Source: an uncultured Chryseobacterium sp.
GTDB taxonomy: Bacteria; Bacteroidota; Bacteroidia; UBA10329
Direction: 5' to 3'
DNA length: 64,000 nt
NCBI GenBank assembly: GCA_964500205.1
Contig: CAZCNS010000003.1
Coordinates: forward strand, 62,606 to 126,605
Shown piece after piece: positions 4,128 to 26,323 of the stretch (position 1 is its first letter; each line of letters opens with the position of its first letter). The position numbers and the translations under genes are program-made. The notes below the pieces were generated by a model that worked only from the letters and a program-made list of their open reading frames with translations, was not told the DNA's origin and ran no database searches.

Positions 4128-4308
4128 TTCTTTCTGTTTGATAATTAGCCGATGAGCGAATTAGCGGGTGGTGGGAAGGGATGGGATGGTTCTTGCAAAG
4201 CCGCGAAGGCGTATTGTTTTTCTGCGAATGAATCACTCTTACTTTGAGCTCTTTGCGTCATCCTTTGCGTTCTCTGCGTGAAAAAAAACTTCACACCTGA
4301 TCTGCTCA

Positions 4309-5442: not shown

Positions 5443-5469
5443 CTTTTTGAAATGTGGAAGGGTAAGTGT

Positions 5470-5633
5470 GTGTTTTAAGGTGGTCAGGTTTTCAGGGAAT
5501 CAGGTTTTCAGCGGAAAGTGTTGAGGGGTTGAACGAGTGATGCTTCTCATCTGCTGAAAATCTGAATTGCTGATATGCTGAATTGCTGATATGCTGATTT
5601 GCTCGTGGCTAACGGCTTGGGGCTAATGGCTCA
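5470..5633. repeat. Short tandem repeats in the operon spacer between the TolC-like gene and the adaptor gene
   Basis: CAGGTTTTCAG is repeated twice, AATTGCTGATATGCTG twice, and GGCTAA(C/T)GGCT twice. This fills an unusually long (about 190 bp) intra-operon gap. Confidence 0.5.
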
Positions 5634-6974
5634 TCACTCCTCGAACACCCTGCTCAGTTCCAGCTTTGCATCCAGCGCTGAGAAGAGTTTGTTGATGTAG
5701 TCGGCCTGCGCCTGGGTCAGTTGGTTCTCGGTCTGTGTGAGCTCCATGCTGGTGCTGAGGCCCTCTTTGTACTTCGTGAGGGTGGTGTTGCGCACGCTAC
5801 GTGCCAGCTTGAGCCCTTTCTCCGCATTGGTGAGCTGTTCGAGTGCCGAGGTGAAGTTGTCCTTGCCTGAGATGTGGCGGAGCTTGAGGCCCTGCTCCAC
5901 ATTCCAAAGCTGATCACGCTTGCGCTGCTCCTCCAGTTTGGCCTTCTTGATGGATGCCAGATTGCCGAGGTTGTCCCAGATGGGCACGTTGAGCGATACA
6001 CCCCACAGCGTGAGCGGGAACCAGCGCCCGTTGCTGCCGAAGAAGTTGAACTGCTCACCGAACGCCTGCTGCTGGTAGTTGAAGAAGGTGTTCAGCGAAG
6101 GGAAGTATTTCGATTGCTCGATCTGTGTGAGGTACTTGTGCATCACCACGTCCTGACTCACGAGGTTGTGGTTGATGTTCATGGAAGGCTTGAACTCCCG
6201 GGACAGAAGTTGCTCAGGGTCAGTGGTCTGCCAGAGGGTCTCCAGACCATCGGTCAGCTCAATGGGGGTGCTCACATCCATGCCGATGGTGTATTTGAGC
6301 AGGTTTCTGGCGCCTTCGGTCTGTCGTTCGGCCATGCTGAGCTGGTTCTGCATGGAGGTGACCAGCAGTTCGATCTGCTCCACGTCCAGCAGCTCCGCGA
6401 AACCGTTCTCGTAGAGGGCCTTGGTCTCTTGCAGGGTCTTGTCCAGATTGGCGAGGTTCTCTTTAAGGATGCGGGTGTTCTCCTCCGCCACCAGTGCGGT
6501 GAAGTAGTTCTGCTCGGCCCTTGCCGCGATCTCATAGCCCACCTGCTTGCCCTTTGTGGCCTGCAATTGTTTCAAACCTCGCGCGCCTTTCAGCCCGATG
6601 AGATACGTGCCATTGAACACAGGCATGTTGGCGGAGATGCCCACGTTCATGCCATGCGGCACACCGAACTGCAAGGGTATCGGGTCACTTCCCGGAGGAA
6701 GCCCAGCGAACTCGGGCGGCAGCAGCGTGGTCGGCAGGTCCACGAAGTAGTTGTAGCTCACCTCTCCGTCCACCTTGGGCAGCAGACGTGCTGTGGCCAT
6801 CCAGATGTCCTTGTCGGCCTGCTCGATGTCTATGGCCGCGCCTTTGGCCTCGAAGCTGTGGACCATGGCGTGGGCCTTGGCTTGCTGAAGGCTCAATTGG
6901 ACCACCTGTGCATCCTGAGCAACGACCATGGAGGTCGCAAACAGACAGAGGGCCGCTGTTAGGTTTCTCATCAT
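5634..6974 (-). CDS. TolC-family outer-membrane efflux protein
   Basis: Signal peptide MMRNLTAALCLFATSMVVAQ, two-repeat helical/beta architecture of outer-membrane factors, and operon context with the adaptor and RND genes. Confidence 0.9.
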   Translation of the reverse strand: MMRNLTAALCLFATSMVVAQDAQVVQLSLQQAKAHAMVHSFEAKGAAIDIEQADKDIWMATARLLPKVDGEVSYNYFVDLPTTLLPPEFAGLPPGSDPIPLQFGVPHGMNVGISANMPVFNGTYLIGLKGARGLKQLQATKGKQVGYEIAARAEQNYFTALVAEENTRILKENLANLDKTLQETKALYENGFAELLDVEQIELLVTSMQNQLSMAERQTEGARNLLKYTIGMDVSTPIELTDGLETLWQTTDPEQLLSREFKPSMNINHNLVSQDVVMHKYLTQIEQSKYFPSLNTFFNYQQQAFGEQFNFFGSNGRWFPLTLWGVSLNVPIWDNLGNLASIKKAKLEEQRKRDQLWNVEQGLKLRHISGKDNFTSALEQLTNAEKGLKLARSVRNTTLTKYKEGLSTSMELTQTENQLTQAQADYINKLFSALDAKLELSRVFEE

Positions 6975-12272: not shown

Positions 12273-13574
12273 ATGAGAAAATTAGCAATTCTTCAAGTTT
12301 TGTTTGCCGTCATCCTCGGATCCTGCTCCAAGGATGAGGTGAACGACCTCGTGCCCACAGGGTCGTGCGACTCCACCGCACTGCCCGTGGTGATGTGCCA
12401 CGGCTTTCTTGCCTCGGGCGACACCTACGCCCCGCAGGCCAAGCGGTTTGCAGCCAACGGCTACTGCGGTGGCAGTGTCCACGTTTTCGATTGGAACTCG
12501 CTGGGTGGCGGTTCCTCGGCCGATGCGCTCGATGCGTTCATTGACAATGTGCTCGCCACCACCGGGGCCGCGCAGGTCAATCTGGCGGGGCACAGCGCAG
12601 GCGGTGGTCTGGGCTACACTTACCTGTCCGATGCGGGCCGTGCCGCCAAGGTGGCACACTACGTCCACATAGGAAGCAATCCGCAGGAGAGTGCCGCAGG
12701 CCCGGAGGGCGCCAAAGTTCCCACGCTCAACATCTGGTCGCCTTTCGATGCCGTGGTGGCAGGGGGCGATATTCCCGGTGCGGAGAACCTGGTCCTCCAA
12801 GGCAAGGACCACTACGAGGTGGCCACCTCTGCCGAGACCTTCGAGGCGATGTTCAGGTTCTTCAATGGGAGGGAGGCAGCCTCATCGGCCATTGTATCCG
12901 ACAACACACGCAGCGTGGCAGGCCGCGTGCTCACGCTTGGCGAGAATGTGGCACTGCAAGCTGCAACGGTGCGCGTTTTCGTGGTGGACGGGGCCACAGG
13001 TTTCAGAACAGACGACAGCCCCCGCCACACCTTCACCACGGACAGCCAGGGCAACTGGGGAAGTTTCAATGCCGAGCAAGGCGCACATTACGAGTTTGAG
13101 GTGACCCCGGCCGAGGCCAATGGCCGCAAGCTGCACTACTACCGCGAGCCGTTCGTCACCAGCGACCATCTGGTCTATCTGCGTGCCATGCCACCTCCCG
13201 CATCTGTGGCCGGGCTGCTGCTGGCAAGTCTTCCGAGGAATGACGAGCAAACGGTGGTCATCGCGTTCGCATCCAGTCAAGCGGTCATTTCGGGCCGCGA
13301 TCAACTGGTGGTCAACGGCCTTGAACTGAGCACCGAGGAGTTCGCATCCGAGGACGACAGCGCCATTGCCTTCTTCCTGTACGACAACGACAACGGGCAG
13401 ACCGATGGCACCCCTGTGGGGCTGTTCGGCAACTTCCCCTTCCTGAGCGGGGTGGACATGTTCTTCCCGACCATCGAGCCGGAGAGCATCTCCCTCACAA
13501 TGAACGGCCGCACGCTCAAGGTGCGCAACTGGCCCTCAGAGACCGAGGGCATCACGGTGGCGGTGTTTGACTGA
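12273..13574 (+). CDS. Secreted lipoprotein alpha/beta-hydrolase (lipase/esterase, GHSAGG nucleophile elbow) with a C-terminal beta-rich domain
   Basis: Lipoprotein signal MRKLAILQVLFAVILGSCS, …VVMCHGFLASGDTY…, and the GxSxG motif in …NLAGHSAGGGLG…. Confidence 0.8.
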   Translation: MRKLAILQVLFAVILGSCSKDEVNDLVPTGSCDSTALPVVMCHGFLASGDTYAPQAKRFAANGYCGGSVHVFDWNSLGGGSSADALDAFIDNVLATTGAAQVNLAGHSAGGGLGYTYLSDAGRAAKVAHYVHIGSNPQESAAGPEGAKVPTLNIWSPFDAVVAGGDIPGAENLVLQGKDHYEVATSAETFEAMFRFFNGREAASSAIVSDNTRSVAGRVLTLGENVALQAATVRVFVVDGATGFRTDDSPRHTFTTDSQGNWGSFNAEQGAHYEFEVTPAEANGRKLHYYREPFVTSDHLVYLRAMPPPASVAGLLLASLPRNDEQTVVIAFASSQAVISGRDQLVVNGLELSTEEFASEDDSAIAFFLYDNDNGQTDGTPVGLFGNFPFLSGVDMFFPTIEPESISLTMNGRTLKVRNWPSETEGITVAVFD

Positions 13575-13688
13575 GCGGAAGGGCTTTTGCCTACCTGTTG
13601 CAGGGGCGGGAAATCAATTGCAGTGCTGCGGGAGTGTTACAGCATTGGGTGTTGGTGGACGTCCTGTGCTTTGGTCTTGGTCGGCAAT

Positions 13689-13868
13689 CAGTCTCTCTTG
13701 TCCATGAAATGAACGGCCAGCCCAACGATCACGCCAATTGTCATGGATTTCCAAAGGACAGCGCACATTTTGTGCATTGAGAATCCATGATAGAAAAAGG
13801 TCTCTGCTGCCATCAGCACGAGAGCTACCAGAAATGTGATCAGACCTATTTTCAAGTTGCGCTGCATT
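13689..13868 (-). CDS. Small hydrophobic protein (59 aa, hypothetical)
   Basis: ATG…TGA ORF MQRNLKIGLITFLVALVLMAAETFFYHGFSMHKMCAVLWKSMTIGVIVGLAVHFMDKRD at the start of the AT-rich island. It shares the upstream motif ACCGTTGG(C/T)AATAAT with the next gene. It is below the ORF-track length cutoff. Confidence 0.3.
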
Positions 13869-14024
13869 CTTTAAATTTAATTATTACCAACGGTTTGCAT
13901 ATGGCTTGTGGCGGTTTCGAAGCACTTTCTTGTCCACCGAAACCAAACTTGGCTACGGAGCAGAAACCTGGCTGGCAGCCGTTCACCCGCCACAAGCTAT
14001 ATGTGTTGTTGGCAATAGTGTTTT

Positions 14025-14420
14025 TTACAATACCTGCACTAGTTGAATATTATTTCCGCAGGTGTCATTGAGAATGGCATATTTTACATTACCCATTTCT
14101 GTCGGTTTAACGCTGAATTCGACACCAAGCTTAGTCAATCGTTCATATTCGCCATCTACGTTTTCTACATCAAATTGCGTCCAAGGAATTCCTGCCTCTT
14201 TCAATGCGTCTTGATATACTTTTGAAGGCTCAAAATGATTAGGTGCTGGTTCCAACAATAGTTCAGGTCCATCTTGCCAATCTTTTGAAACTAAGGTCAA
14301 CCACCTATTTCCACCTCCTAAAGGCTCGTCCTTCTTTTTAATAAAGCCTAATTTCTCTGTATAAAATTTAAAGGCTTGTTCTTGGTCTCGGACTGTAATA
14401 CTTATCAGTGTTACTTTCAT
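14025..14420 (-). CDS. VOC-family (glyoxalase/bleomycin-resistance fold) protein
   Basis: MKVTLISITVRDQEQAFKFYTEKLGF… and …GVEFSVKPTEMGNVKYAILNDTCGNNIQL are typical of VOC paired beta-alpha-beta-beta-beta modules. AT-rich codon usage is foreign to the flanks. Confidence 0.8.
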   Translation of the reverse strand: MKVTLISITVRDQEQAFKFYTEKLGFIKKKDEPLGGGNRWLTLVSKDWQDGPELLLEPAPNHFEPSKVYQDALKEAGIPWTQFDVENVDGEYERLTKLGVEFSVKPTEMGNVKYAILNDTCGNNIQLVQVL

Positions 14421-14591
14421 TATGTGTCTTTTTACATTATTGCCAACGGTGCGCCTAAAAGTATTGCGTTTTGAAACTACTGAGTTTTCGAGATACGGTA
14501 ACGCAGCAGAACGAAACTGAGACTGACTGACGTACCGTCCCGCGCAATAATTTTAGGCATTGTTGTGTGTAGTTGTTTCATTTCAATCCGG

Positions 14592-15317
14592 TCACTTGAA
14601 AAAGCGCATAAACTTTTTTTGCTCCAGAATATCGAACTGGTCCTTCATTGCACTGTAACTTGTCATTAGACGCCTACAGTCATCTCTGATTGCCTCCGCA
14701 GTTTGCGCAAACGTGGGTAACGTTTTTGGTGTCGTGTATAAATCTGGGTTGCTGGAAGAAGGAGAAACGCGTAAGGCCATTTCACTGTTGAAATTACTTA
14801 GTTCATTACCTAGCTTTTTGACTAGTTCATTCGTTTTCGTGTCATTGAATTTGAACTCTGCACTCAATACGGTATAGAAAAACTCTTCGATTTGATCTAT
14901 CTCGTAGCTGAAGATTGAAATGTTGTTCGATATTCTATTCATTTGATACATGAAAGTATCGTGGTTAGACAGTTTGTAGATTTCATTAATCCGCTTCAAA
15001 TCGCTCAGGTAAAGGTTTCCGTAGTGGTTAAAAATTTTGGCGCCAAGTGGAATAATGGCACCTATCACAATCATGAATACCCCTAGAAACGTCAGAATAT
15101 TATTCTCTAGTTCAATAGTCTCAGCCAACTCAGGTCTAATTAGAATTGCGATGTATGGAAAGACATTACTAAAACCGAGAATTGAAATGCCACCCCCTAT
15201 GAAACCTAAACTGATTCTGGAGATTACTCGTCCTTTTAAGTAGGCTTGAAATAGGTCCAGTCCTTTGCTAATTAGGTCACGTGTTTCTTTGTCCATTAGT
15301 ATTTCTGTTAAATGCAA
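14592..15317 (-). CDS. Hypothetical membrane protein (two N-proximal TM helices plus a roughly 140-aa cytoplasmic domain)
   Basis: Hydrophobic helices ISRISLGFIGGGISILGFSNVFPYIAILI and ILTFLGVFMIVIGAIIPLGAKIF. No recognisable catalytic motif. AT-rich. Confidence 0.6.
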   Translation of the reverse strand: MHLTEILMDKETRDLISKGLDLFQAYLKGRVISRISLGFIGGGISILGFSNVFPYIAILIRPELAETIELENNILTFLGVFMIVIGAIIPLGAKIFNHYGNLYLSDLKRINEIYKLSNHDTFMYQMNRISNNISIFSYEIDQIEEFFYTVLSAEFKFNDTKTNELVKKLGNELSNFNSEMALRVSPSSSNPDLYTTPKTLPTFAQTAEAIRDDCRRLMTSYSAMKDQFDILEQKKFMRFFK

Positions 15318-15407
15318 GTTTTATAAATAAGTCATATATGAAAGGTGCCGCTTTTATCATGGTTGTTGCGTGTACTTGGTTTGATTTCAAAAATCAAAGT
15401 ACAGGAA

Positions 15408-16262
15408 TCAATGCTGCCTTTTTTCGATTTCCATTATTTGATTTTCGAAACCACGCAGGTCAGCATGTTGCCAATTCATCAATTCAATCTGTAAGGAGTC
15501 AAATTTTAGCAACGGCCGTTGTCCAAGGACTAAAAACTTATCGGGTTTTCCATTTTCGTCATGTATCTGAATTAAGCATTCTTCAATATTTTTCTTCTCA
15601 AATTTTCGCACCAAAACTGAATACTTTGTAATGCCTTCATGATTGATATAAGGTACTGTGATTTCCACTATTGACTTGAAAATTCTTCTCGTCCCTGAGA
15701 CCGAACCACGTGCGAAATGGAAGCCTTTTGGCTTCTTCCTGTTATTCTTGTCAGACTTAGGATATAATGTGTGAACAATCTTAGTGCCTTTGTATGTCAG
15801 TAGTTTATATTTCGCTGTGCTACCGTCTTTGTGTTTATAGTGGGCGACAAACAACTCAAACTCTTCAGGACGATGGTTGTTCTCAATGTCTAAATTGTCT
15901 TCAGAATAAATGGCGTCTGCTATTCTTGCGTAATCCAGTATTGGGATTGAATCGGTTCTGAACCTACTTGGCTCTTGAAGTTTCTTTCTGGTATTTCCAG
16001 ATGCTTCATTTGAATCAATCCAATTGAAAGATTCTGACCAAAATTCATGTCGGGCATGAATATGTGTGAATCCGGTATGCTCGTTACCCTTTACGAAAAC
16101 CAGTTCCTTTACTGGCGAGATATTCCAAATTGTTTTATGTCCAGGACCAAAAAGATTAATGACATTTTGATTCTTTAATACTGGATTCAGACGAGCAAAC
16201 TCCTCAATTTCCTGAATTTCTGCCTTTGTAAGAAGGATTTCAGATGCAGCGGCCATTTCCAA
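15408..16262 (-). CDS. Hypothetical soluble protein with a His-cluster (HTGFTHIHARHEF), 284 aa
   Basis: Clean AT-rich ORF directly upstream of, and co-oriented with, the 2-TM gene. No family recognised. Confidence 0.6.
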   Translation of the reverse strand: MEMAAASEILLTKAEIQEIEEFARLNPVLKNQNVINLFGPGHKTIWNISPVKELVFVKGNEHTGFTHIHARHEFWSESFNWIDSNEASGNTRKKLQEPSRFRTDSIPILDYARIADAIYSEDNLDIENNHRPEEFELFVAHYKHKDGSTAKYKLLTYKGTKIVHTLYPKSDKNNRKKPKGFHFARGSVSGTRRIFKSIVEITVPYINHEGITKYSVLVRKFEKKNIEECLIQIHDENGKPDKFLVLGQRPLLKFDSLQIELMNWQHADLRGFENQIMEIEKRQH

Positions 16263-16616
16263 TTACACACAACGATTGGCTAAAGATACCTGGTTATCCT
16301 TAGCCGACTCTGTCGATTCAGGTTAAACGTTTGTAGTTGAGTTGATTGATGCTGAATGTCCGTTTTAGCGGACTGGTGATGTCAGGCGAATTCTTTGAGC
16401 TGGCAGGTGCGTAGATGGCGGTTGTTTTTAAGCTGGTAAGGTCGAAGAACTGTGGTACGTAGTGTGTCTGTTCTCCCTTGTCCGCGAAGTGGGGGGCAAA
16501 GCAATCTCCGAACCAATAAAGGTTGCTGTTGCTCTATCATCTCCGCATCCTATGGCTTTGTTCCTTTGGTCAGAGGCAAATCTATGACATAGAACATTAG
16601 GTTGGGCGAGGGGGGG

Positions 16617-16800
16617 GCTTGGTAATTAAAAATTAAGAATTAAAAATTAAGAATTGGGGGGGCGCAGTCGCGGGATTTTGCTTCGATTAGCGCAGTCGCG
16701 GGATTCAACGGGCGGGTAGATGGCTTCGGTGGTTCCTCCCTCGCAATGACGGGGCGGTCGTCCCTCCCTCGCAATGACGGGGCGGGGCCGCAATCCCTCG
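16617..16800. repeat. Second locus of the dispersed composite repeat (inverse orientation) plus a 26-bp tandem duplication
   Basis: (AAAAATTAAGAATT)x2, then CGCAGTCGCGGGATTTTGCTTCG…CGCAGTCGCGGGATT, which is the reverse complement of the locus-1 core. CCTCCCTCGCAATGACGGGGCGG occurs twice (16738-16790). Confidence 0.6.
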
Positions 16801-16839
16801 TTTCCCGTGTCATGCTCATGAAGTGGGCGAACTCAAGGC

Positions 16840-19800
16840 TCACTGGAATTTACCGATGACCACGGCTACGAGATTGCAGTACACGTAGTAGCCCGTGCCG
16901 GCTCCCACGTGCCAATAGCCCTGAAAGGTGACCGTGCCATCGGCAGTGGCCCTGAAGAGGCCGGTGCTGTGCCCCCCGCTCCAGTCGGTGCCATTGGAGG
17001 TAATCCAGTTTGATGGCAGCACCCAGGTTCCCGTTCCGCTGGAATTGAGTACGCGCATGTAGGTCGTGTTGACAATGGAGTTCGAGAGGTTGCACGCGCA
17101 GTCCACTTTCACCAGGTCCTCATTCTGCACTGTGATAGTGGTACTCAGGTCCGCACCCGTGAAGACCGAGGTGGTGGAAGTAGTGGAACCCACCACGCTC
17201 GACTCGTCCGCAGCGAAAGTGGCCACCCCTCTCACTTTGCCGTTCACATCAAGCTTTGCCGTGGGTGCGGTGATGCCGATGCCGACCCTGTCGTTGGTTG
17301 CATCCACTGACAAAGTGGAGCCGTCAACATTGAAGACGTCCACACCATTGCCTGTAAAGCTGAGCTTGTTGGTGGCAGAAAGCCCAGAAACGGTCGTGGC
17401 CTGAGTAAGCGCACCTCCCAGACGGACGGTGGCCGGGGCTGTTTCCGTCAGGCCGTTCTCTACCGTGATGATTCCTGTAGGGTCGCTCCATGTCGGTGCC
17501 CCCGCCCCGTTGCTGCGCAGCAACTGACCAGATGTGCCGGCTGCGGTAAAGGCGTAGGCCGACCCTGTGCCGTAAGCCAGCCCCCCGTTTGTAGGGGCTG
17601 CGTTTGAGTTTGTTCCCCCGTTGGCGATGGGCAGTATTCCTGTTACCTCTGCCGAGGCCAGACCAATGGCTCCAGCGGTGAACCCGGAGCCGTTGCCCTT
17701 GACCGGGCCGTTGAGCGTGGTGGTCACGGCAATGGTGCCACTTCCTGTCACCGGAGAGCTTCCGACCGAGAGGCCCGATGGCATTGTGAGGCCCACGGAG
17801 GTCACCGTGCCTACGTTAGCGGTGTTGATGTTCGATGCGGTCACCACTCCGGCTGGGCTTATGGTGAGTAGGCGGTCCTGACCAGAGCCGTTCAATGTGG
17901 GAAGGGTAAAGACGCCTGCTTGCGAAATGCGCATTCGTTCTATAAACGAGTTGCTTACCGACCCGGTCTGCAATATGATGTCTCCACCGCTGTTTGCAGC
18001 ACTGAGCTGATTGGTTCCGGAGCGCAGCAGCAGGTCTCCACCTGTCGCAGTGCCAGTGAGGTTGTAGCCGGCTCCGGCCTCCAACACCAGGTCGCCTCCG
18101 GAGCGCGCGCCACTGTCAGAGGAGGCATCGCCTGCCTTGACCGACAATGCGGAGCCGTCTGAGCTGCCCACGGCTTTCTGCAGGGTGATGTTCTTTGCAC
18201 CACCGCGCGAGAGCAGTACGTTGCCGCTCACATGAAGCCGTTCCAGAGGCGCAGACTCGCCAATGCCTACATTGGCCCCATTGCCCAGCACAACGCTGTT
18301 GCTTGCGCCCACCACAGCATTGGAACCTATGGCCGTTGCGTTGGTGAGGTTGTTCACTGAGGCATCGGCATTGATGCCCAGAAAAGTGTTTTGCGACCCG
18401 GTAGTGTTGAAATCGCCCGCGGCATCGCCCATGGCGATGTTGCCACTGCCTGTGGTGTTGTTGTACAGGGCCAGATAGCCCAAGGCCACATTGCTGTTGC
18501 CCGTGGTGTTGAATAGCATGGCATCCTTGCCTATGGCGGTGTTCCGGATGCCTTGTGTATTGTCGCGCAAGGCATCCTTGCCCATAGCAGTGTTGTCGAG
18601 TCCGGTGGTATTGCTATACATGGCACCAGACCCAAGCGCACTGTTGAAGTTGCCCGTGGTATTGTTGCGCAAGGCATCCCGGCCCATGGCGGTATTGTTG
18701 GATCCTGTGGTGTTGCTGACCAACGCCAGAACGCCTATGGCCGCATTGTTGAAGCCTGATGTGTTCACACGGAGTGCATCCTTTCCAATGGCGGTGTTCT
18801 GCCCGCCTGTGGTGTTGGTGCGCAGTGCGTCTCTGCCCACGGCCGTGTTGTCATTCCCGGTCGTATTGCTCACCAATGCCTGAAAGCCCAAGGCCGCGTT
18901 ACTGCTACCTGTGGTGTTGGACAGCATGGCATCCTTACCGATGGCGGTGTTCTGCCCGCCCGTGGTATTGTCGCGCAGTGCGTCCCTGCCCGCTGCCGTG
19001 TTGTCGCTTCCTGTTGTATTGCTTTGCAAGGCCCGCGATCCGAGTGCACTGTTGAATATGCCTGTGGTATTACTGCTCATGGCATTCCTACCCACGGCCG
19101 TATTGTCATTCCCGGTGGTGTTGTTGAGCAACGCCTGAAAGCCGTTGGCCACATTGCTCACACCTGTGGTGTTCGACAGGAGAGCATCCTTGCCGATGGC
19201 GGTGTTTTGAATGCCTGTGGTGTTGGCACGCAGTGCGTCCTTGCCCACGGCCGTGTTGTCGTTCCCGGTGGTATTGCTGCGCATGGCTTCCCGTCCCATG
19301 GCGGTGTTGTTGGCCCCGGTGGTGTTGGAAAGAAGGGTATTGTAGCCCACACCGGTGCTTGAGTTGGAGGTGTTCACGTTCCCCGCCTGATAGCCGAGAA
19401 AAACCTCGCCCGTGCTGGCCACCCTTCCTGCCTTCTGGTTGTTCACGCGGATGTTGAAGGGTATATTGTCTGTGGTACCTATGAAATGTGTGCCGTCCAC
19501 TGTGCTCGCATTTCCACTGAGCGACCAAGCTTCAGCAGTGACCACTGCAGTGGGGTCTGTCCATGTCATCCTTCCGTTGGCGTCAGAGACGGGGACGAAA
19601 CCAGTGGCCTGATTGCCGTCCACCATGCGGATGTTGCCTACCACATGCAGCCTGTCGCTGGGTGCCGAGATGCCGATGCCCACATTGCCGTTCTCATTAA
19701 TGGTCAATGCAGTGTTGGTGATCCCTGTCGCATAGTCATTGGACGTGCCGAGCATCAGCTTTGACCCGAAGCCATTGCTCTGTGCAGCGATCCGAGCGAT

Positions 19801-20400
19801 GGGGTTCGTTGCATCCGCGAAAATGAAGTCCATGGCTGCAAATCCTCCATTGGTGGTGGTCCCCTCCATGCTGAACATGCCTCTTGTGCTTCCTGTGAAG
19901 CTGCCGATCTGGTTTCCATTTACATGCAACCTCGACAATGGAACCGCAGCACCTATGGCCACATTCCCGGTGCGGTTGATGGCTCCGGTGGAATTGGCGG
20001 GGCCGTTCCAAGTGGGGTCAAGCTCTGTGAAGCTGGTGAGATACCCTACGGTGGCATGGTTCCCCCAACCGAATGCGGTGTTCCAGTTGGTGATGTCCGT
20101 GTTGGTTATCCCGAACGATGGGCTGGCGGAAAATATCGGGTCTGTCTCCACCGTAGAGGCAAATGAGGTCCAGCTGCTACCGTTCCATCCTTGGAACTGC
20201 CCCAAGGAGCCATTCCATCGGATGGTGCCCGCCCCGCCCGTGGGGGCACCTGCACCGATATCGGAGCTTAGGCGAAGTCGGCCAGCAATGTCGAGTTTCT
20301 CCTGCGGGGCAGGCACGCCAACACCCACGTTCTGAGCATGGGCCGCTGTTAAAGAAAGAAGCAATGTGGACAGTAGTACAGGTCTAAAGGACATCATCAT
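16840..20400 (-). CDS. Secreted giant protein (1186 aa) with a long run of YadA-like (Hep_Hag) 7-11-residue repeats and a tail-fibre-like C-terminal region
   Basis: Signal peptide MMMSFRPVLLSTLLLSLTAAHA. There are more than 40 repeats of the form NTAIGxxALxxNTTGxxNTAxG. The C-terminal has a G(I/V)LP(I/V)ANGGT motif (GILPIANGGTNS) common in phage tail-fibre and tail-fibre-like proteins. Confidence 0.85.
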   Translation of the reverse strand: MMMSFRPVLLSTLLLSLTAAHAQNVGVGVPAPQEKLDIAGRLRLSSDIGAGAPTGGAGTIRWNGSLGQFQGWNGSSWTSFASTVETDPIFSASPSFGITNTDITNWNTAFGWGNHATVGYLTSFTELDPTWNGPANSTGAINRTGNVAIGAAVPLSRLHVNGNQIGSFTGSTRGMFSMEGTTTNGGFAAMDFIFADATNPIARIAAQSNGFGSKLMLGTSNDYATGITNTALTINENGNVGIGISAPSDRLHVVGNIRMVDGNQATGFVPVSDANGRMTWTDPTAVVTAEAWSLSGNASTVDGTHFIGTTDNIPFNIRVNNQKAGRVASTGEVFLGYQAGNVNTSNSSTGVGYNTLLSNTTGANNTAMGREAMRSNTTGNDNTAVGKDALRANTTGIQNTAIGKDALLSNTTGVSNVANGFQALLNNTTGNDNTAVGRNAMSSNTTGIFNSALGSRALQSNTTGSDNTAAGRDALRDNTTGGQNTAIGKDAMLSNTTGSSNAALGFQALVSNTTGNDNTAVGRDALRTNTTGGQNTAIGKDALRVNTSGFNNAAIGVLALVSNTTGSNNTAMGRDALRNNTTGNFNSALGSGAMYSNTTGLDNTAMGKDALRDNTQGIRNTAIGKDAMLFNTTGNSNVALGYLALYNNTTGSGNIAMGDAAGDFNTTGSQNTFLGINADASVNNLTNATAIGSNAVVGASNSVVLGNGANVGIGESAPLERLHVSGNVLLSRGGAKNITLQKAVGSSDGSALSVKAGDASSDSGARSGGDLVLEAGAGYNLTGTATGGDLLLRSGTNQLSAANSGGDIILQTGSVSNSFIERMRISQAGVFTLPTLNGSGQDRLLTISPAGVVTASNINTANVGTVTSVGLTMPSGLSVGSSPVTGSGTIAVTTTLNGPVKGNGSGFTAGAIGLASAEVTGILPIANGGTNSNAAPTNGGLAYGTGSAYAFTAAGTSGQLLRSNGAGAPTWSDPTGIITVENGLTETAPATVRLGGALTQATTVSGLSATNKLSFTGNGVDVFNVDGSTLSVDATNDRVGIGITAPTAKLDVNGKVRGVATFAADESSVVGSTTSTTSVFTGADLSTTITVQNEDLVKVDCACNLSNSIVNTTYMRVLNSSGTGTWVLPSNWITSNGTDWSGGHSTGLFRATADGTVTFQGYWHVGAGTGYYVYCNLVAVVIGKFQ

Positions 20401-21339
20401 GTGCCTAATGGTTGAGTAGAGGATGCAAATTTTACTAAAAAGTCTATGCGTACGACCTGTGGTTGATCAAAATGGTATTTTGAAAAGAAAACGTGATTGA
20501 TAGTGAGATGTGAAGTGATCACAGCTCCTTTCAGACGATGAAAGACCATGCTGCTGGAGCGATCATCTGGTCTATCGAAGCCATTGAGCATGCTATGCGT
20601 TGCAACGCATGGGCATTGAAGACCCCCGGTTCTACCCCCACATCATAGCGCTTCAAAGGGTGAAACAGTGCCGATCGAAGGTTCTGAACCCCTTTTTGGG
20701 GTGTTCTGGCCTTTTTGGCGCAGGTTCTGAGCCATTCGCTGTTTCGTGTTGGGAACATTAAAATATCCCGAAACTTTGGAGTGCGTTCTTTGAAAATCCT
20801 GACCCTCCCGCCTGTTGGTTGGATATAACCGCGAGAAGATCATGTCCTACCATCGCAAGATTATATATAACGGTCTCACGGTTATATATGTATTTCTCAA
20901 GGTTATATGTCACCAAAGAAAGTTTGGATGAAAACCTTTGATGTTTATGTCCAACATTGACAAAAATAGGTACTACCGTCCGTTTTTCAGACCCAACCAT
21001 GAGACGGAGATGTCCAACCATGGAACGGTTGGCTCACAACAAGACGGGGAGAGAAGGAATCAATAGACGCATAAATCATTGTTTAATAATTAAATAAACG
21101 TCCATGACAGCAACTTGAAGCACCTTGCCGCCCGTTTGTGCAGACACAGACCCGGTAAGTACAACCGACAGTTCATTTACAATTCAAGTTCACTTGACGA
21201 TTAAATAAAACTTAAAAGCCATGTCAACAACACCAGACGGCATACCCCTGAATATGACGGAGTTCTATGCTTTCATTTAAGACCTCTCTACCGGCATGGT
21301 GGCCGCTGTGGTGGTAGGGTGAGGCCCTGCCAGTGTGCG

Positions 21340-21560
21340 ATCTCCGACCTGCTTGTCCGTCCGTCCGCCTCAGGCGGACGGACAGGTGGGCGGGCGGGAT
21401 TTTTTTGATTGTTGAGCGAAGCGAAATCCCGCCCAAGCGGGAAGCGAAGCGAAATCCCGCGACTGCGGGAAGATTGCTGATTGCTAATTGCTGATTGACG
21501 AGGGAGGGATTGACAATTAAAAGTTACCAATTACCAATTACCAATTAACAATTGGGGGTG
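21340..21560. repeat. Third locus of the dispersed composite repeat, with a GC hairpin and T-run
   Basis: Hairpin CCGTCCGTCCGCC-TCAG-GCGGACGGACAGG, then GGGCGGGCGGGATTTTTTT, then AGCGAAGCGAAATCCCGC…GCGAAATCCCGCGACTGCGGGA, then (GATTGCT)x3-4 and (CCAATTA)x3. Confidence 0.6.
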
Positions 21561-21665
21561 GAGGGGAGGTGGAAGAGGGGAGAGGATGATTTTTAATGTT
21601 GTTCTGTTTGTTTTGCAACCGACATAAAAGGGAAGTTAGTAAGTTCACCCCCACGAAACTGACGT

Positions 21666-23174
21666 ATGAACTTCGACCAGACCTTCAAGAACATTGATGA
21701 CGTGCTCCGCAGGGAGACCGACTCCGAACTCGACTACATAGAGCAGACCTCGTGGATACTCTTCCTTCGCTACTTGGACGAACTGGAGCAGGAGCGCGCA
21801 GATGAGGCCGAGCTGCGGGGCAACGAATACCGTTTCCTCCTGGCCGAGGAATACCGCTGGGGCGCATGGGCCATGCCCAAGGATGCCAAAGGGGCGTACG
21901 ATTTCAAGTCCGCCCTGACGGGGCCCGACCTCATCGAGTTTGTCAATGGCAAGCTGCTGCCCTACCTGCGCACCTTCAAAGAGGCGCACAGCGACAACCC
22001 CCGCACCCTCGAATACAAGGTGGGCGAGATATTCGGAGAGCTGAAGAACAAGCTGGGCAGCGGCTACAACCTGCGCGAGATACTGGAGGCCATAGACACC
22101 CTGCCCCTCAAGAGCAGCAAGGACCGCCACGAGCTCAGCTTCCTCTACGAGAGCCGCATCCGCAACATGGGCAACGCGGGCCGCAACGGAGGCCAGTACT
22201 ACACCCCCCGCCCCCTCGTGCGCGCCATGATTCAGGTGACCGACCCCCGCATAGGCGAGACCGTCTATGATGGGGCCGCAGGCTCTGCGGGCTTCCTCTG
22301 CGAGGCATACGAGTACATGGCCCCGCAGACCGAGCGCCACCCCACGCTATCAAGCACCGAGGCCCTGCGCGTGCTGCAAGAGGAGACCCTCTATGGCAAG
22401 GAGGTGAAGAACCTCGCCTACATCATCGGCATCATGAACATGATACTGCATGGCGTGGAGGCCCCCAACCTCATCCATATCAACACGCTGGCCGCACACG
22501 ACAGTCAGGTGCAGGAGCGCGACCGCTATGATGTCATCCTCGCCAATCCGCCCTTTGGCAGCAAGGAGCGGCCCGAGGTGCAGCAGGCATTCGCCATCAA
22601 GACCAGCGAGACGGCCTTCCTCTTCCTTGAGCACTTCATCCGCTATCTGAAGACGGGAGGCCGCGCGGCCATCGTCATCAAGAACACCTTTCTGAGTAAC
22701 ACCGACAATGCGGCCGTGAGCCTGCGCAAGCACCTGCTGGAGACCTGCAACCTCCACACCGTGCTCGACATGCCGCAGGGCACCTTCCTCGGGGCGGGCG
22801 TCAAGACCGTCATCCTCTTCTTCACCAAGGGCGAGCCTACCCGCAACATCTGGTACTACCAGCTGAACCCCGGCCGCAACATGGGCAAGACCAACCCCCT
22901 CAACGACAGCGACCTGGCCGAGTTCATCGAACTCCAGAAGACCCGCCCAGAGACCGAGTGCAGTTGGAAAGTTGGGGTCACTTCGAGTGACGCTGACGAA
23001 GGAGGCGTTGTATCGAGAAGCCCCAACGCCACCAACGGCTTCGACCTCTCCGTAAAGAACCCCAACACCCCCGAAGAGGCACCCCTGCGCAGCCCACAGG
23101 AGATACTGGACGAGATGACCGCCTTGGACGAAGAGACCAAGGAACTGTTGGACGGGATAAGGGAGTTGCTATGA
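21666..23174 (+). CDS. hsdM: Type I restriction-modification N6-adenine DNA methyltransferase subunit
   Basis: HsdM N-terminal domain and catalytic motif IV NPPF (…VILANPPFGSKERPE…). It overlaps the specificity subunit by ATGA. Confidence 0.95.
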   Translation: MNFDQTFKNIDDVLRRETDSELDYIEQTSWILFLRYLDELEQERADEAELRGNEYRFLLAEEYRWGAWAMPKDAKGAYDFKSALTGPDLIEFVNGKLLPYLRTFKEAHSDNPRTLEYKVGEIFGELKNKLGSGYNLREILEAIDTLPLKSSKDRHELSFLYESRIRNMGNAGRNGGQYYTPRPLVRAMIQVTDPRIGETVYDGAAGSAGFLCEAYEYMAPQTERHPTLSSTEALRVLQEETLYGKEVKNLAYIIGIMNMILHGVEAPNLIHINTLAAHDSQVQERDRYDVILANPPFGSKERPEVQQAFAIKTSETAFLFLEHFIRYLKTGGRAAIVIKNTFLSNTDNAAVSLRKHLLETCNLHTVLDMPQGTFLGAGVKTVILFFTKGEPTRNIWYYQLNPGRNMGKTNPLNDSDLAEFIELQKTRPETECSWKVGVTSSDADEGGVVSRSPNATNGFDLSVKNPNTPEEAPLRSPQEILDEMTALDEETKELLDGIRELL

Positions 23175-24322
23175 GTACTAACAAATGGACTCCATTCCGA
23201 AATGTCGGAAATGTTCAGTCGGGAGCTGGATTTCCAATTGTTTATCAAGGCCTAACGGAAGGTGAATACCCCTTCTACAAGGTTGGAGACATGAATTCAG
23301 AAGGCAACGAGATATTCATGTCTCAAGCCAACCATTACATATCTGATGAAGTTCGCAGGGAACTTGGAGCTAAAGTAATTCCACCAGACAGTATAATCTT
23401 CCCCAAAGTTGGCGGGGCCATATTGACTAACAAAAAAAGGATTACAACTCTTCCATGCTGTATTGACAACAACTTGATGTCAATCTGGGTCGACCCAGCA
23501 GCATATTCCAAAAAGTACTTCTACTATTTCTTCAATTCGATTGATTTATTTGAGTTGTCTAATAAAGCTGGGTTGCCATCAATTACGCAAACAGCTCTTT
23601 ACGAACTGAAAGTTCCCATCCCACCCCTCCCCGAACAGGAGCGCATCGTTGCCAAGTTGGATGCCGCCTTTGCGGCCATCGATAAGGCCAAGGCCAATGT
23701 GGAGCGCAACCTGCACAATGCCAAGGAGCTTTTTCAGAGCAAGCTCAATGAGGTGTTTGAAAATTTGGAATCACAATATGAAAGGACTCCTATAGCTTCT
23801 GTTTGCAAAGAGATATTTGCTGGAGGTGATGCCCCACGTGAAAACTTCTCCGAAGCCAGAACAGATAAATTTCACATTCCAATAATTGCCAATGCCGTTA
23901 AAGACCATGGTCTTTACGGATATACAGATTTGGTGAGAGTTTCGGAGCCATCAATTACCATAGCAGCACGCGGAAGTGGTACTGGACATACTGAAATCAG
24001 GTTGGAGCCATTTTTCCCAATTGTCAGGTTAATTGTCCTGATTCCAAAGAGGGAGATGATTGACCTTTCCTTTTTCTGTTACTCAATCAAAAATTTGGAG
24101 ATTTTGAGAAGCGGTTCTGCAATACCGCAGTTGACTGTGCCCATGATTAAAGGTTACTCGCTTGCTGTGCCACCTTTGGAAACTCAAGAAGTGTTAGTTG
24201 AAATGCTTAACTCGTTGGAGGGCAGTTTGCAGTCCCTTGAAACCTATTATACCCGCAAACTAACAGAATTGGAAACCTTGAAGAAGTCGGTTTTGGAGCG
24301 GGCTTTTAGGGGGGAGATTTGA
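23171..24322 (+). CDS. hsdS: Type I R-M specificity subunit (two target-recognition domains)
   Basis: AT-rich variable TRDs separated by the conserved central helix (…LPPLPEQERIVAKLDAAFAAIDKAKANVERNLHNAKELFQSKLNEVF…), and the conserved distal helix …LETQEVLVEMLNSLEGSLQSLETYYTRKLTELETLKKSVLERAFRGEI*. Confidence 0.9.
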   Translation: MSTNKWTPFRNVGNVQSGAGFPIVYQGLTEGEYPFYKVGDMNSEGNEIFMSQANHYISDEVRRELGAKVIPPDSIIFPKVGGAILTNKKRITTLPCCIDNNLMSIWVDPAAYSKKYFYYFFNSIDLFELSNKAGLPSITQTALYELKVPIPPLPEQERIVAKLDAAFAAIDKAKANVERNLHNAKELFQSKLNEVFENLESQYERTPIASVCKEIFAGGDAPRENFSEARTDKFHIPIIANAVKDHGLYGYTDLVRVSEPSITIAARGSGTGHTEIRLEPFFPIVRLIVLIPKREMIDLSFFCYSIKNLEILRSGSAIPQLTVPMIKGYSLAVPPLETQEVLVEMLNSLEGSLQSLETYYTRKLTELETLKKSVLERAFRGEI

Positions 24323-24359
24323 AAAGAGAAAATGACATAGTGTTCATTTGCAGCCTCTT

Positions 24360-24463
24360 TGTGGGACACGTAGGACATAGCGTGGGACGTGGCGGAGTGG
24401 GAGCCTCCATCGTGCAGTTCCACGGAGCGTCCCAAGCGTCCCACAGCAAATAGCCCACAGCCT
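24360..24463. mobile_element. MITE/PATE-like about 100-bp element, copy A (terminal inverted repeats TGTGGGAC…GTCCCACA)
   Basis: GTGGGACACGTAGGACATAGCGTGGGACGTGGCGGAGTGG … CACGGAGCGTCCCAAGCGTCCCACAGC. Arms are mutually complementary (CGTGGGACG vs CGTCCCACG). Near-identical copies lie at 24543-24640 and 26324-26433. Confidence 0.5.
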
Positions 24464-24524
24464 CAAACTAACAGAATTGGAAACCTTGAAGTAGTCGGTT
24501 TTGGAGCGGGCTTTTAGGGGGGAG
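24464..24524 (+). pseudogene. Orphan duplicate of the hsdS 3' end (…KLTELETLK*SVLERAFRGEL), copy 2 of 3
   Basis: A roughly 60-bp direct repeat of 24262-24322 with an internal stop (TAG). A third copy at 24653-24716 runs into the KAP NTPase reading frame. Confidence 0.6.
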
Positions 24525-24542
24525 CTATGAAAATAAAAATGG

Positions 24543-24640
24543 AGGACACGTAGGGCATAGCGTGGGAAGTGGCGGAGTGGTGGTCACCATCGTGCAGTCC
24601 CACGGAACGTCCCAAGCGTCCCACAGCATGAAGCCCACAG
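24543..24640. mobile_element. MITE/PATE-like element, copy B
   Basis: GGACACGTAGGGCATAGCGTGGGAAGTGGCGGAGTGG…CACGGAACGTCCCAAGCGTCCCACAGC. Confidence 0.5.
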
Positions 24641-24736
24641 CAAACCCACTACACCCGCAAACTAACAGAACTTGAAACCTTGAAGAAGTCGGTTTTGGAG
24701 CGGGCTTGTAGGGGGGGATATGAAACAGGAAGCGAT

Positions 24737-26116: not shown

Positions 26117-26118
26117 TC

Positions 26119-26178
26119 AATGAACGAATCCGAAACCCGCGCCCATTTCATCGCCCCCGCCCTGATAGCCAAGGGATA
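26119..26178 (+). pseudogene. Truncated, diverged copy of the hsdR 5' end (MNESETRAHFIAPALIAKG*)
   Basis: 20 codons, about 80% identical to the true hsdR start at 27077 (VNESNTRAHYIDPALIAKGW…), with TAG where hsdR has TGG. Confidence 0.5.
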
Positions 26179-26323
26179 GGGGCTAATAACAGCCATTGAA
26201 CCGAGCGGTTGAAAACCCCTTTCAGGAGGGCAGCATGTTCAGGTTCCGCTGTTCCACGGCACGGCCCATAAACCCCACAGAAAACCCCACCCGTAGAAAC
26301 CATGGCGCACTCACCGTCTTTTT

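What the first reader, a model, noticed from the sequence alone, without database searches (positions are those of the whole stretch)
13600..16400. Sharply AT-rich roughly 2.5-kb island of four small hypothetical genes, wedged between GC-rich core genes and flanked by the dispersed repeat
Base composition drops abruptly after the lipase gene and recovers at about 16.35 kb; codon third positions switch from G/C-rich to A/T-rich. All four ORFs (59 aa, VOC 131 aa, 2-TM 241 aa, 284 aa) are minus-strand. The right edge abuts locus 2 of the composite repeat (16617-16800) and the tail-fibre-like giant gene. The first two genes carry an identical ACCGTTGG(C/T)AATAAT box 15-20 nt upstream of their ATGs, suggesting a shared promoter or operator inherited with the cassette. 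This pattern points to a horizontally acquired module.
Basis: seen in the sequence. Interest (0 to 1): 0.6.

Follow-up and report, generated by a model that had tools for sequence, protein, structure and literature searches.

The report
Integron gene-cassette array without integrase
The AT-rich island is a short row of integron-type mobile gene cassettes, each ending in a folded attC recombination site, sitting in a GC-rich Bacteroidota chromosome with no integrase nearby; the "shared promoter box" is really the recombination crossover site, so this is a known kind of element in a phylum where it is rarely reported.

Summary
GC falls from about 0.58 to 0.38 over roughly 13.8-16.35 kb, the lowest 2.5-kb stretch of the window. 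GC3 is 0.31-0.44 against 0.70-0.85 in host genes. The four minus-strand ORFs are there, and ACCGTTGGYAATAAT occurs exactly twice.

"Horizontally acquired" is supported; "promoter/operator" is not. Each box is the R' core (G|TTGGYA) of an attC-like site (13885-14014 and 14441-14568, 130 and 128 nt). Each site has AAC/GTT outer boxes, asymmetric unpaired spacers and 16-17-bp inner stems.

- These are the only two such sites in 64 kb (chance 0.07), and they are homologous to each other.
- Each cassette's first 14 nt match its own attC R'' box 13/14, the signature of a circular cassette.
- VOC-cassette relatives lie in at least four other contexts, and homology starts exactly at G|TT.
- Relatives of the 282-aa and 234-aa genes also sit in attC-bounded cassettes elsewhere.
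- No integrase is in the window, so this is a CALIN.

Verdict: new member of a known kind, moderate interest.

The parts
16267..16318 (-). attC0: short, atypical attC-like site upstream of the first cassette. Hairpin GGCTAAGGATA/TATCTTTAGCC (16278-16288 / 16295-16305), a 4-6 nt spacer, then R' GTTGTGT (16273->16267). The R''-side box is degenerate (ATCGAC, GAC in place of AAC).
   Evidence: The 3' half (L'-spacer-G|TT) has the same layout as attC sites in L098/L099. A GAC variant of R'' is also seen in L070. The fold z-score is only -1.6 to -1.8, so this site is tentative.
14447..16272 (-). Cassette 1 (1826 nt), from the TT after the crossover at 16273|16272 to the G of the next R' at 14447. 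It carries two genes and is a fusion of two ancestral cassettes.
   Evidence: The start GTTGTGTGTAATTG (16273->16260) has its best inverted match in the window at its own attC R'' (14562-14575, 1 mismatch). A second match lies at 15365-15378 (2 mismatches).
15408..16256 (-). 282-aa protein of an orphan Bacteroidota family, with the conserved motif GNEHTGFxHIxxRH and YKGTKIVHTLYP. Possible BECR-like RNase-toxin domain plus a C-terminal beta-sheet domain.
15352..15390 (-). Remnant of the 5' half (flank + R'' + spacer + start of L'') of a former attC behind the 282-aa gene. Its 3' half is missing.
   Evidence: A 40-nt local alignment to the 5' part of attC1 scores 40, against shuffle mean 23.7, sd 4.0, max 39. 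The R''-like box 15365-15378 complements the cassette start 12/14. In L096 the homologue is a solo cassette with its own attC.
14592..15296 (-). 234-aa membrane protein: two predicted TM helices followed by a helical bundle. Orphan family.
   Evidence: Homologues sit in a 3-gene cassette (L098/99), directly after HsdR (L101), and beside deaminase/CTD10/MC6/DUF2326 conflict genes (L102).
14441..14568 (-). attC1 (128 nt): R'' ACACAAC, AAT, L'' GCCTAAAATTATTGCG, 74-nt variable loop, L' CGCAATACTTTTAGGC, GCACC, R' GTTGGCA.
   Evidence: I10; dG -25.5, z -4.8.
13891..14446 (-). Cassette 2 (556 nt): VOC/glyoxalase-family gene (14025-14420) plus attC2.
   Evidence: L065 carries the whole cassette at 81% identity over 557 nt. 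Homology with L064, L079, L070 and L065 begins exactly at G|TT.
13885..14014 (-). attC2 (130 nt): R'' TGCCAAC, AACA, L'' CATATAGCTTGTGGCGG, 72-nt loop, L' CCGCCACAAGCCATATG, CAAACC, R' GTTGGTA.
   Evidence: I6; dG -28.2, z -3.2. Homologous to attC1 over its full length: score 65 against shuffles 22.4 +/- 3.8.
14436..14450 (-).
13880..13894 (-).
13600..13890 (-). Cassette 3: 59-aa two-TM ORF (13688-13867) and a decayed terminal site. Only an R''-like box CCACCAAC (13656->13649) is left, with no convincing stem. The left edge of the island is not defined to the base.
   Evidence: fold z about 0. GC is intermediate (0.46, GC3 0.58). Only two small homologues were found.

Best explanation
[quoted passage not shown] It was captured from low-GC Bacteroidota into a chromosome of about 58% GC in a Chitinophagales/Saprospiraceae-like bacterium.

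On the minus strand the order is:
1. a short atypical attC (attC0);
2. cassette 1, carrying the 282-aa and 234-aa genes, formed when two cassettes fused after the attC between them lost its 3' half;
3. attC1;
4. cassette 2, carrying the VOC gene;
5. attC2;
6. cassette 3, carrying the 59-aa gene, with a decayed terminal site.

How it works (inferred from the established integron mechanism). The bottom strand of each attC folds into a hairpin. An integron integrase cuts between G and TT of the R' core. Cassettes can then be excised as circles and re-inserted.

This mechanism accounts for three features of the sequence:
- every cassette begins with TTGG/TTGT;
- the box recurs 15-20 nt ahead of the start codons;
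- each cassette's R'' box matches its own first bases.

Shown here: the anatomy of the sites, the family relationship between attC1 and attC2, the breakpoints at G|TT in other contexts, and the foreign composition.

Inferred: that an IntI made these junctions, and whether the array is still mobile. No integrase is within 13-47 kb, and two of the sites are decayed.

The cargo is one VOC enzyme, one tiny membrane protein, and two orphan proteins that elsewhere sit beside restriction-modification genes. These two may be a toxin or defence module.
For: (1) Two sites have full attC geometry: an outer ...AAC/GTT... pair, unpaired spacers of 4/6 and 3/5 nt, inner stems paired 16/17 and 15/16, loops of 72-74 nt, and total lengths of 130 and 128 nt. 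Each starts 7-24 nt after a stop codon, on the coding strand of same-orientation ORFs.

(2) A geometric scan of all 64 kb on both strands finds only these two sites. Shuffled sequence gives 0.07.

(3) attC1 and attC2 are homologous over their full length (score 65, shuffles 22 +/- 4), although their stem sequences differ.

(4) Circular-cassette signature. The 14 nt at each cassette start have their best inverted match in the whole window at that cassette's own R'' box (1 mismatch each). The in-situ pairing partner matches less well.

(5) Breakpoints. In window/L064/L079/L070/L065 comparisons, identity is 0.23-0.38 in the 40 nt left of G|TT and 0.56-1.0 in the 25 nt to the right. L065 shares the complete 557-nt cassette, and the homology stops at the next crossover.

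(6) Relatives of the other genes are cassette-borne. P0002 (63% identical to the 282-aa protein) is a solo cassette between two attC sites in L096. One of those sites shares GTGCTTCGAAA.CGCCA...GCAAACCGTTGGT with window attC2. P0014 (76% identical to the 234-aa protein) ends a 3-gene cassette with a 69-nt attC in L098-L100. L064 is a long same-strand array with several attC sites, including an MNT/HEPN cassette.

(7) Composition and donors. Cassette genes have GC3 0.31-0.44 against 0.70-0.85 in host genes. Homologues come from contigs of 0.28-0.45 GC.

(8) No tyrosine recombinase is in the window (Pfam on 27 ORFs; motif scan; six-frame tblastn).
Against: - No integron integrase, attI or Pc promoter was found, and the rest of the genome could not be inspected.
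- The curated IntegronFinder attC covariance model could not be run. My own mini-model did not reach sites with loops this long.
- The stems carry single mismatches (A.C and T.C) rather than clear extrahelical bases.
- Both strands fold about equally well.
- attC0 and the terminal site are non-canonical or decayed.
- The junctions between the island and host DNA are not confirmed by an independent assembly. The only other contig, L059, covers 13900-16309 and stops inside attC2 and at the edge of attC0.
Confidence: 0.86

Rival explanations
1. The island is a generic horizontally acquired region, brought in by phage, ICE or homologous recombination. On this view the intergenic hairpins are terminators or REP/MITE-like elements, and the box is a promoter or operator shared by two genes.
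For: The composition shift is real. The box contains a sigma-70-like TTGGCA-16-CATAAT match. No integrase lies nearby.
Against: - The hairpins have loops of 72-74 nt and no T-tract, so they are not intrinsic terminators.
- They are not copies of one repeat dispersed in the window.
- Promoter-like matches are not enriched, and the -10 element overlaps the ATG.
- This model does not explain why homology with four unrelated contexts begins exactly at G|TT.
- It also does not explain why each R'' box matches its own cassette's start.
- No relatives were found in phage or plasmid collections. Rfam finds nothing in the island.
Confidence: 0.06
2. The island is an assembly artefact: a low-GC fragment from another organism in the metagenome was joined into this MAG contig.
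For: The source appears to be a metagenome assembly. The only independent contig (L059, Logan SRR14492188) holds the island alone and ends within or at the edge of the attC hairpins. Exact-protein look-ups of the flanking lipase, the 59-aa protein and the giant protein found no other contig spanning the junctions.
Against: An internal 2.7-kb insert needs two chimeric joins. No repeat is shared between the island ends and the host flanks. Composition changes gradually over about 150-300 nt at both edges, and the 59-aa cassette is intermediate in GC. Unitig breaks at attC sites are expected for real cassette arrays whose context varies within a population.
Confidence: 0.05
3. The array is served by a recombinase other than a classical integron integrase. 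On this view a Bacteroidota-specific system uses attC-like folded sites.
For: Integrons are reported as very rare in Bacteroidetes complete genomes (PMC9024848). No IntI was seen in any of the roughly 100 fetched loci. The only trace is a 43-aa tyrosine-recombinase box-II fragment with an in-frame stop in L071.
Against: The sites have the canonical AAC/GTT cores, spacer asymmetry and G|TT crossover of IntI substrates. Integrons have been reported in Bacteroidota MAGs (PMC8618304). The fetched loci cover only 5-10 kb around each gene, so the absence of intI is weak evidence.
Confidence: 0.03

Closest known systems
[quoted passage not shown] 2016; IntegronFinder 2.0, PMC9024848)
   Same: At least two attC sites lie within 4 kb. 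The ORFs are compact and share one orientation, each followed by an attC. No integrase is nearby. The cargo differs in composition from the host. Decayed sites fit the idea that CALINs are degraded or off-site arrays (PMC8618304).
   Different: The host is a GC-rich Chitinophagales/Saprospiraceae-like Bacteroidota, a phylum where RefSeq surveys found almost no integrons. Only two sites are intact. The call rests on geometry and comparative breakpoints, not on the curated attC model.
Sedentary chromosomal integron arrays with homogeneous attC families (for example Vibrio cholerae VCRs)
   Same: attC1 and attC2 have nearly equal length (128 and 130 nt) and are homologous to each other and to attC sites in L065 and L096. 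This suggests origin from one attC family. Cargo of unknown function, a VOC/glyoxalase-type enzyme and toxin-like genes are all typical of such arrays.
   Different: Identity between the two sites is far lower than among VCRs. The array holds three cassettes rather than tens to hundreds, and no IntI/attI/Pc platform is present.
Fused cassettes in class 1 integrons, where loss of an internal attC joins two genes into one mobile unit (general knowledge, not checked in a paper here)
   Same: The 282-aa and 234-aa genes share one pair of cassette ends. Only the 5' half of the intervening attC remains. Relatives of each gene occur separately elsewhere.
   Different: The genes are uncharacterised rather than resistance genes, and the fusion is inferred from one locus.
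Anti-phage defence cassettes of chromosomal integrons (bioRxiv 10.1101/2024.07.02.601686), for example the two-gene RexAB-like Sucellos
   Same: A small one- or two-gene cassette pairs a cytoplasmic protein with a membrane protein. Relatives lie next to restriction-modification and conflict-system genes. A Type I R-M operon with a KAP NTPase lies 5 kb away in the window.
   Different: No sequence match to any PADLOC model. No homology to RexA/RexB was shown. The two genes are not an obligate pair. Function is untested.
BECR-fold tRNase toxins (CdiA-CT Kp342 6CP9, NC101 5I4Q; PMC9086364)
   Different: No sequence similarity. Foldseek finds nothing. There is no secretion or delivery domain and no identified immunity gene. 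The protein is 282 aa with an extra beta-rich C-terminal half.

Membership tests
Integron cassette array / CALIN | At least two attC sites less than 4 kb apart with no integron integrase nearby (IntegronFinder 2 default, PMC9024848) | tested here: met
   attC2 at 13885-14014 and attC1 at 14441-14568 are 427 nt apart. No tyrosine recombinase was found in the 64-kb window.
Integron cassette array / CALIN | attC architecture: R''(...AAC) and R'(GTT...) outer boxes, L''/L' inner boxes forming an imperfect hairpin, about 57-141 nt long | tested here: met
   Lengths are 130 and 128 nt. The outer boxes carry the AAC/GTT triplets. The inner stems pair 16/17 and 15/16. Fold z-scores are -3.2 and -4.8. 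These are the only two hits in the window against 0.07 by chance.
Integron cassette array / CALIN | Unpaired central spacer between the R and L boxes, asymmetric between the arms | tested here: met
   The spacers are 4/6 nt (attC2) and 3/5 nt (attC1) on the coding strand, with the same polarity in both. Independent sites in L064, L096 and L098 have 3-5 / 5-8 nt.
Integron cassette array / CALIN | Extrahelical bases on one arm that mark the recombined (bottom) strand | tested here: inconclusive
   Each stem has one mismatch (A.C in attC2, T.C in attC1) rather than a bulged base. The two strands fold with similar energy. PMC5027507 notes that EHBs are dispensable for some attC sites.
Integron cassette array / CALIN | Crossover at G|TT of R': related cassettes in different arrays share homology up to that point and not beyond | tested here: met
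   Five VOC contexts give identity 0.23-0.38 left of the junction and 0.56-1.0 to the right. The 3' end of the homology with L065 lies at the next crossover.
Integron cassette array / CALIN | Circular-cassette signature: the R'' box of a cassette is complementary to that cassette's own first bases | tested here: met
   13/14 for cassette 1 and 13/14 for cassette 2. In each case this is the best inverted match in the whole window. The same signature is seen in L064, L096 and L098.
Integron cassette array / CALIN | Detection by the curated attC covariance model of IntegronFinder | not testable with these tools
   The model is not available. A home-made model (R1) built from 8 independent attC cores recovered only short-loop sites and not sites of 128-130 nt.
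Complete integron | intI (tyrosine recombinase with the IntI-specific domain), attI and Pc adjacent to the array | tested here: not met
   No integrase lies within 13.6 kb to the left or 47 kb to the right. The rest of the 330-kb contig and the genome were not available.
Integron cassette array / CALIN | IntI-catalysed excision and integration of the cassettes | not testable with these tools
   Requires an experiment.
VOC / glyoxalase-bleomycin resistance-dioxygenase superfamily (PF00903) | Match to the family profile above the curated cut-off | tested here: met
   63.7 bits against a cut-off of 20.6, covering residues 6-127. No NCBIfam equivalog reached its cut-off, so the substrate is unknown.
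BECR-fold RNase toxins (CdiA-CT Kp342/NC101 type) | BECR alpha/beta fold with a His/Arg/Lys/Tyr/Thr catalytic set | tested here: inconclusive
Known anti-phage defence systems (PADLOC-DB 2.0) | Profile match of the component proteins | tested here: not met
   The only hit is a weak Csn2 match (E 0.0035, 36 residues) for the 282-aa protein. Nothing was found for the others.

The most novel reading that the evidence does not exclude
The fused 282-aa + 234-aa cassette encodes an undescribed toxin or abortive-infection type defence module of Bacteroidota. It would combine a BECR-like RNase effector with a two-TM helical-bundle partner. Both families move between genomes as integron cassettes and are repeatedly placed beside restriction-modification systems.
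Probability: 0.2. Interest if true: 0.6.

Novelty: new member of a known kind. Interest (0 to 1): 0.38.

Why it matters
This result turns an unexplained AT-rich island into a defined mobile-element structure with base-level cassette boundaries, and it corrects a plausible but wrong regulatory reading of the repeated box.

It adds a clear example of integron-type cassettes in a Chitinophagales/Saprospiraceae-like Bacteroidota genome. It also links that example to a shared attC family seen in several unrelated metagenomic arrays (L064, L065, L096, L098/99). Surveys of complete genomes found integrons almost absent from Bacteroidetes (PMC9024848). Such arrays may therefore be under-counted in this phylum.

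The cassette boundaries also nominate two orphan protein families as portable single-gene modules worth testing for toxin or phage-defence activity. These are the 282-aa family (57 cluster representatives) and the 234-aa family.

Tried and rejected
- **Synteny with relatives through the lipase gene.** 58 genomes were found. The best is only 73% identical in protein, and no neighbouring gene is shared, so presence or absence of the island cannot be judged.
- **Exact-protein look-ups** of the lipase, the 59-aa protein and the giant protein, meant to find contigs spanning the island junctions: none is on record.
- **Covariance model of attC.** A model built from 8 hand-trimmed independent sites finds short-loop sites in other loci (up to 38.9 bits). 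It cannot absorb loops of 70-90 nt, so it neither supports nor refutes the window sites. RNAalifold on a MAFFT alignment of seven long attC sites gave no consensus because the arms were not aligned in register.
- **Known RNA families.** None at gathering score in the window, and none at E <= 1 in the island. No tRNA is present as an integration target.
- **Profile searches** (PADLOC, PHROGs, NCBIfam, Pfam) for the three unknown proteins: nothing usable.
- **Plasmid and viral collections** for the 282-aa and 234-aa proteins: no match.
- **Obligate 282/234 gene pair: rejected.** Relatives occur separately and with other partners.
- **Search for intI with an IntI1 sequence recalled from memory.** The only result is a 43-aa fragment with an in-frame stop at the edge of L071. 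This is a lead, not evidence.
Full report
**1. Observation**

The composition drop is real and sharp.
- 400-nt windows go from 0.61 GC at 13200-13599 to 0.36-0.43 between 13800 and 16399, and return to 0.53-0.60 by 16400-16999.
- At the 1-kb scale, the two bins 14001-16000 (0.386 and 0.378) are the lowest of the 64.
- The lowest 2.5-kb window of the whole sequence starts at 13801: 0.389 against a mean of 0.555, sd 0.038.
- Third-position GC is 0.70-0.85 in the surrounding host genes. It is 0.31 in the VOC gene, 0.36 in the 282-aa gene and 0.44 in the 234-aa gene. The 59-aa ORF is intermediate at 0.58.

The four minus-strand ORFs exist. Homologues show that the two larger proteins start at ATG codons, giving 282 and 234 aa rather than 284 and 241.

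The box ACCGTTGGYAATAAT is present at 13880-13894 and 14436-14450 and nowhere else in 64 kb, even with two mismatches allowed. By chance 0.13 copies are expected.

The dispersed GC-rich repeat is real, but it lies only to the right of the island.

**2. What the box and the intergenic regions are**

Directly upstream of each box on the minus strand lies a long imperfect hairpin.
- One has arms 13898-13914 / 13987-14003: 17 nt, 94% complementary, 72 nt apart.
- The other has arms 14453-14468 / 14543-14558: 16 nt, 94% complementary, 74 nt apart.

Folding shows a second, outer stem in each. It is formed by the box itself and a complementary sequence just after the stop codon of the upstream gene, and it is separated from the inner stem by unpaired spacers.

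Read on the coding strand, the two sites are:
- TGCCAAC-AACA-CATATAGCTTGTGGCGG-(72 nt)-CCGCCACAAGCCATATG-CAAACC-GTTGGTA (130 nt)
- ACACAAC-AAT-GCCTAAAATTATTGCG-(74 nt)-CGCAATACTTTTAGGC-GCACC-GTTGGCA (128 nt)

This is the anatomy of integron attC sites: R''(...AAC), an unpaired central spacer, L'', a variable terminal structure, L', a spacer, and R'(GTT...). The AAC/GTT triplet is the only universally conserved sequence (PMC5027507).

Both folds are more stable than shuffled sequence (z -3.2 and -4.8). The opposite strands fold about as well.

A scan of the whole window on both strands for this geometry (AAC...GTT boxes 45-160 nt apart, spacers of 2-8 nt, at least 11/12 paired in the inner stem) returns only these two sites. 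Shuffled sequence gives 0.07.

The two sites are also homologous to each other along their full length (local score 65, shuffles 22.4 +/- 3.8), although their stem sequences differ. That is expected for attC sites from one integron.

**3. Cassette signatures**

Integron cassettes are cut between the G and the TT of R'. A cassette therefore starts with TT..., and its own R'' box is complementary to its own first bases.

- The 14 nt at the start of the VOC cassette (GTTGGCAATAATGT) have their best inverted match in the window at 14008-14021. This is the R'' of the attC behind the VOC gene, with 1 mismatch.
- The 14 nt ahead of the 282-aa gene (GTTGTGTGTAATTG, 16273->16260) have their best inverted match at 14562-14575. 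This is the R'' of the attC behind the 234-aa gene, with 1 mismatch.

The units are therefore 16272->14447 (1826 nt, two genes) and 14446->13891 (556 nt, VOC).

A third match with 2 mismatches lies at 15365-15378, in the 282/234 intergenic region. There, a 40-nt stretch is homologous to the 5' part of attC1 (score 40; shuffles 23.7 +/- 4.0, max 39). No 3' half follows it. I read this as two ancestral cassettes fused by loss of half of the intervening attC.

Upstream of cassette 1 there is a short hairpin (16278-16305). Its L'-spacer-G|TT half is canonical, but its R'' side is degenerate. It is marginal by folding statistics.

Behind the 59-aa ORF only an R''-like CCACCAAC box survives.

**4. 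Evidence from other sequences**

*VOC cassette.* VOC relatives (64-90% protein identity) occur in 31 metagenomic loci whose GC ranges from 0.28 to 0.57.
- In L064, L079, L070 and L065, nucleotide homology to the window starts exactly at the G|TT of the box.
- Identity is 0.23-0.38 in the 40 nt before the junction and 0.56-1.0 in the 25 nt after it.
- L065 carries the entire cassette including the attC (81% over 557 nt), and homology stops at the next crossover.
- L064 is a 12-kb run of same-strand genes separated by attC sites. It includes a two-gene MNT/HEPN cassette whose ends also match each other.

*282-aa family.* This family is rare: 12 clusters by single-sequence search and 57 by profile, all unnamed and from Bacteroidota-type sources.
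- Its closest relative (P0002, 63%) is a solo cassette between two attC sites in L095-L097, next to restriction-modification genes.
- The upstream attC there shares long identical stretches with window attC2.
- Other relatives are ordinary single genes in low-GC Bacteroidota.

*234-aa family.* The closest relative (P0014, 76%) is the last gene of a three-gene cassette ending in a 69-nt attC. Others lie directly after hsdR (L101) or beside deaminase/CTD10/MC6/DUF2326 conflict genes (L102).

The two families never co-occur outside this island.

**5. What is missing**

- No tyrosine recombinase is encoded in the window. By the IntegronFinder definition the element is therefore a CALIN, not a complete integron (PMC9024848).
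- The curated attC model could not be run, and my own small model was uninformative for such long sites.
- The stems show mismatches rather than clear extrahelical bases.
- Synteny with relatives could not be used: the nearest genome has a lipase only 73% identical and shares no neighbouring genes.
- An independent Logan contig reproduces 13900-16309 exactly but does not reach host DNA. Look-ups of the flanking proteins failed. A chimeric join therefore cannot be formally excluded, although it would need two coincidental joins.

**6. Cargo**

- The 131-aa protein is a VOC-superfamily enzyme of unknown substrate.
- The 59-aa ORF is a two-TM peptide with only two small homologues.
- The 234-aa protein is modelled as two TM helices plus a helical bundle, with no specific structural neighbour.
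- The window has a Type I R-M operon with an inserted KAP NTPase 5 kb away. Both orphan families recur beside R-M genes elsewhere, which gives a modest prior for a defence or toxin role. This is in line with reports that integron cassettes store small defence systems (bioRxiv 10.1101/2024.07.02.601686).

**7. Verdict**

The horizontal-acquisition reading is right. The promoter/operator reading is replaced by a better-supported one: the box is the attC R' core and cassette junction.

The element is a new member of a known kind, an integron cassette array without an integrase, found in a phylum where such arrays are seldom reported in complete genomes. Interest is moderate. The most novel open possibility is that the fused two-gene cassette is an undescribed toxin or defence module.

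Noticed in passing
window 21666-29620 (+): A Type I restriction-modification operon: HsdM, HsdS, an inserted KAP-family P-loop NTPase (24680-26116), a 23S rRNA-IVP-like four-helix protein, and HsdR. hsdS and the KAP gene are themselves AT-rich (GC 0.43-0.45, GC3 0.45-0.48) inside an otherwise GC-rich operon. The neighbourhood therefore looks like a defence island with swapped modules.
   Followed up: partly
window 16617-16800; also 417-568 and 21453-21468: A GC-rich composite intergenic repeat of the host. It consists of 14-nt AATTAAAAATTAAG x2, GCGCAGTCGCGGGATT x2, and a 28-nt unit containing CCTCCCTCGCAATGACGGGG x2. The GCAGTCGCGGGATT unit recurs at three other places in the window. It has no shown link to the cassette array.
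   Followed up: partly
window 16840-20400 (-): A 1186-aa secreted-looking protein with long runs of NTTG-type repeats and no Pfam match.
   Followed up: no
window 20400-21650: About 1.2 kb of lower-GC sequence (0.42-0.51) between the giant gene and hsdM, with no ORF over 90 aa. It contains one copy of the dispersed repeat unit at 21453.
   Followed up: no
L059 (= window 16309-13900, Logan SRR14492188): An independent assembly yields a 2410-nt contig identical to the island core. It begins at the edge of the attC0 hairpin and ends inside the L' arm of attC2, 9 nt before the crossover. Assembly graphs breaking there may reflect variable cassette context in the population.
   Followed up: partly
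L064 4649-4898, 8867-9263 and 1-801: Besides ordinary attC sites, this array has a second element of about 200 nt repeated three times. Each copy ends in a perfect 16-bp hairpin (GGCAATATCTCCGTTA...TAACGGAGATATTGCC), followed about 11 nt later by GTTGGCA, GTTGTAG or GTTAGTG. Its nature is unclear.
   Followed up: no
L105/L106 (Segetibacter sp. MAG) 900-6150: A distant 282-aa-family member ends a row of six small same-strand genes. They are separated by spacers of 120-540 nt that share recurring motifs, for example ...CAGCxATTTxxGTTxTxCTGTTxGTTxCAxGTGAA and AATCAGCATGTTGCTTATTT. The array is cassette-like, but the intergenic element is not a canonical attC.
   Followed up: no
L071 1-150: A fragment of a tyrosine-recombinase C-terminus (box II, 53% identical over 43 aa to an IntI1 sequence recalled from memory) with an in-frame stop. 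It lies at the contig edge, upstream of and on the same strand as a row of small genes that includes a VOC relative. It may be an integron-integrase remnant.
   Followed up: partly
L101 1672-16382: A 234-aa-family member sits immediately after hsdR in a Type I R-M operon. The operon also holds an AAA_15/21 ATPase and a YgjP-like hydrolase, with a tyrosine integrase about 4.5 kb downstream. This looks like an integrative defence island.
   Followed up: no
window 58211-58753 (-): Another local GC dip (0.457 for 58001-59000) around a 180-aa ORF with no Pfam match.
   Followed up: no
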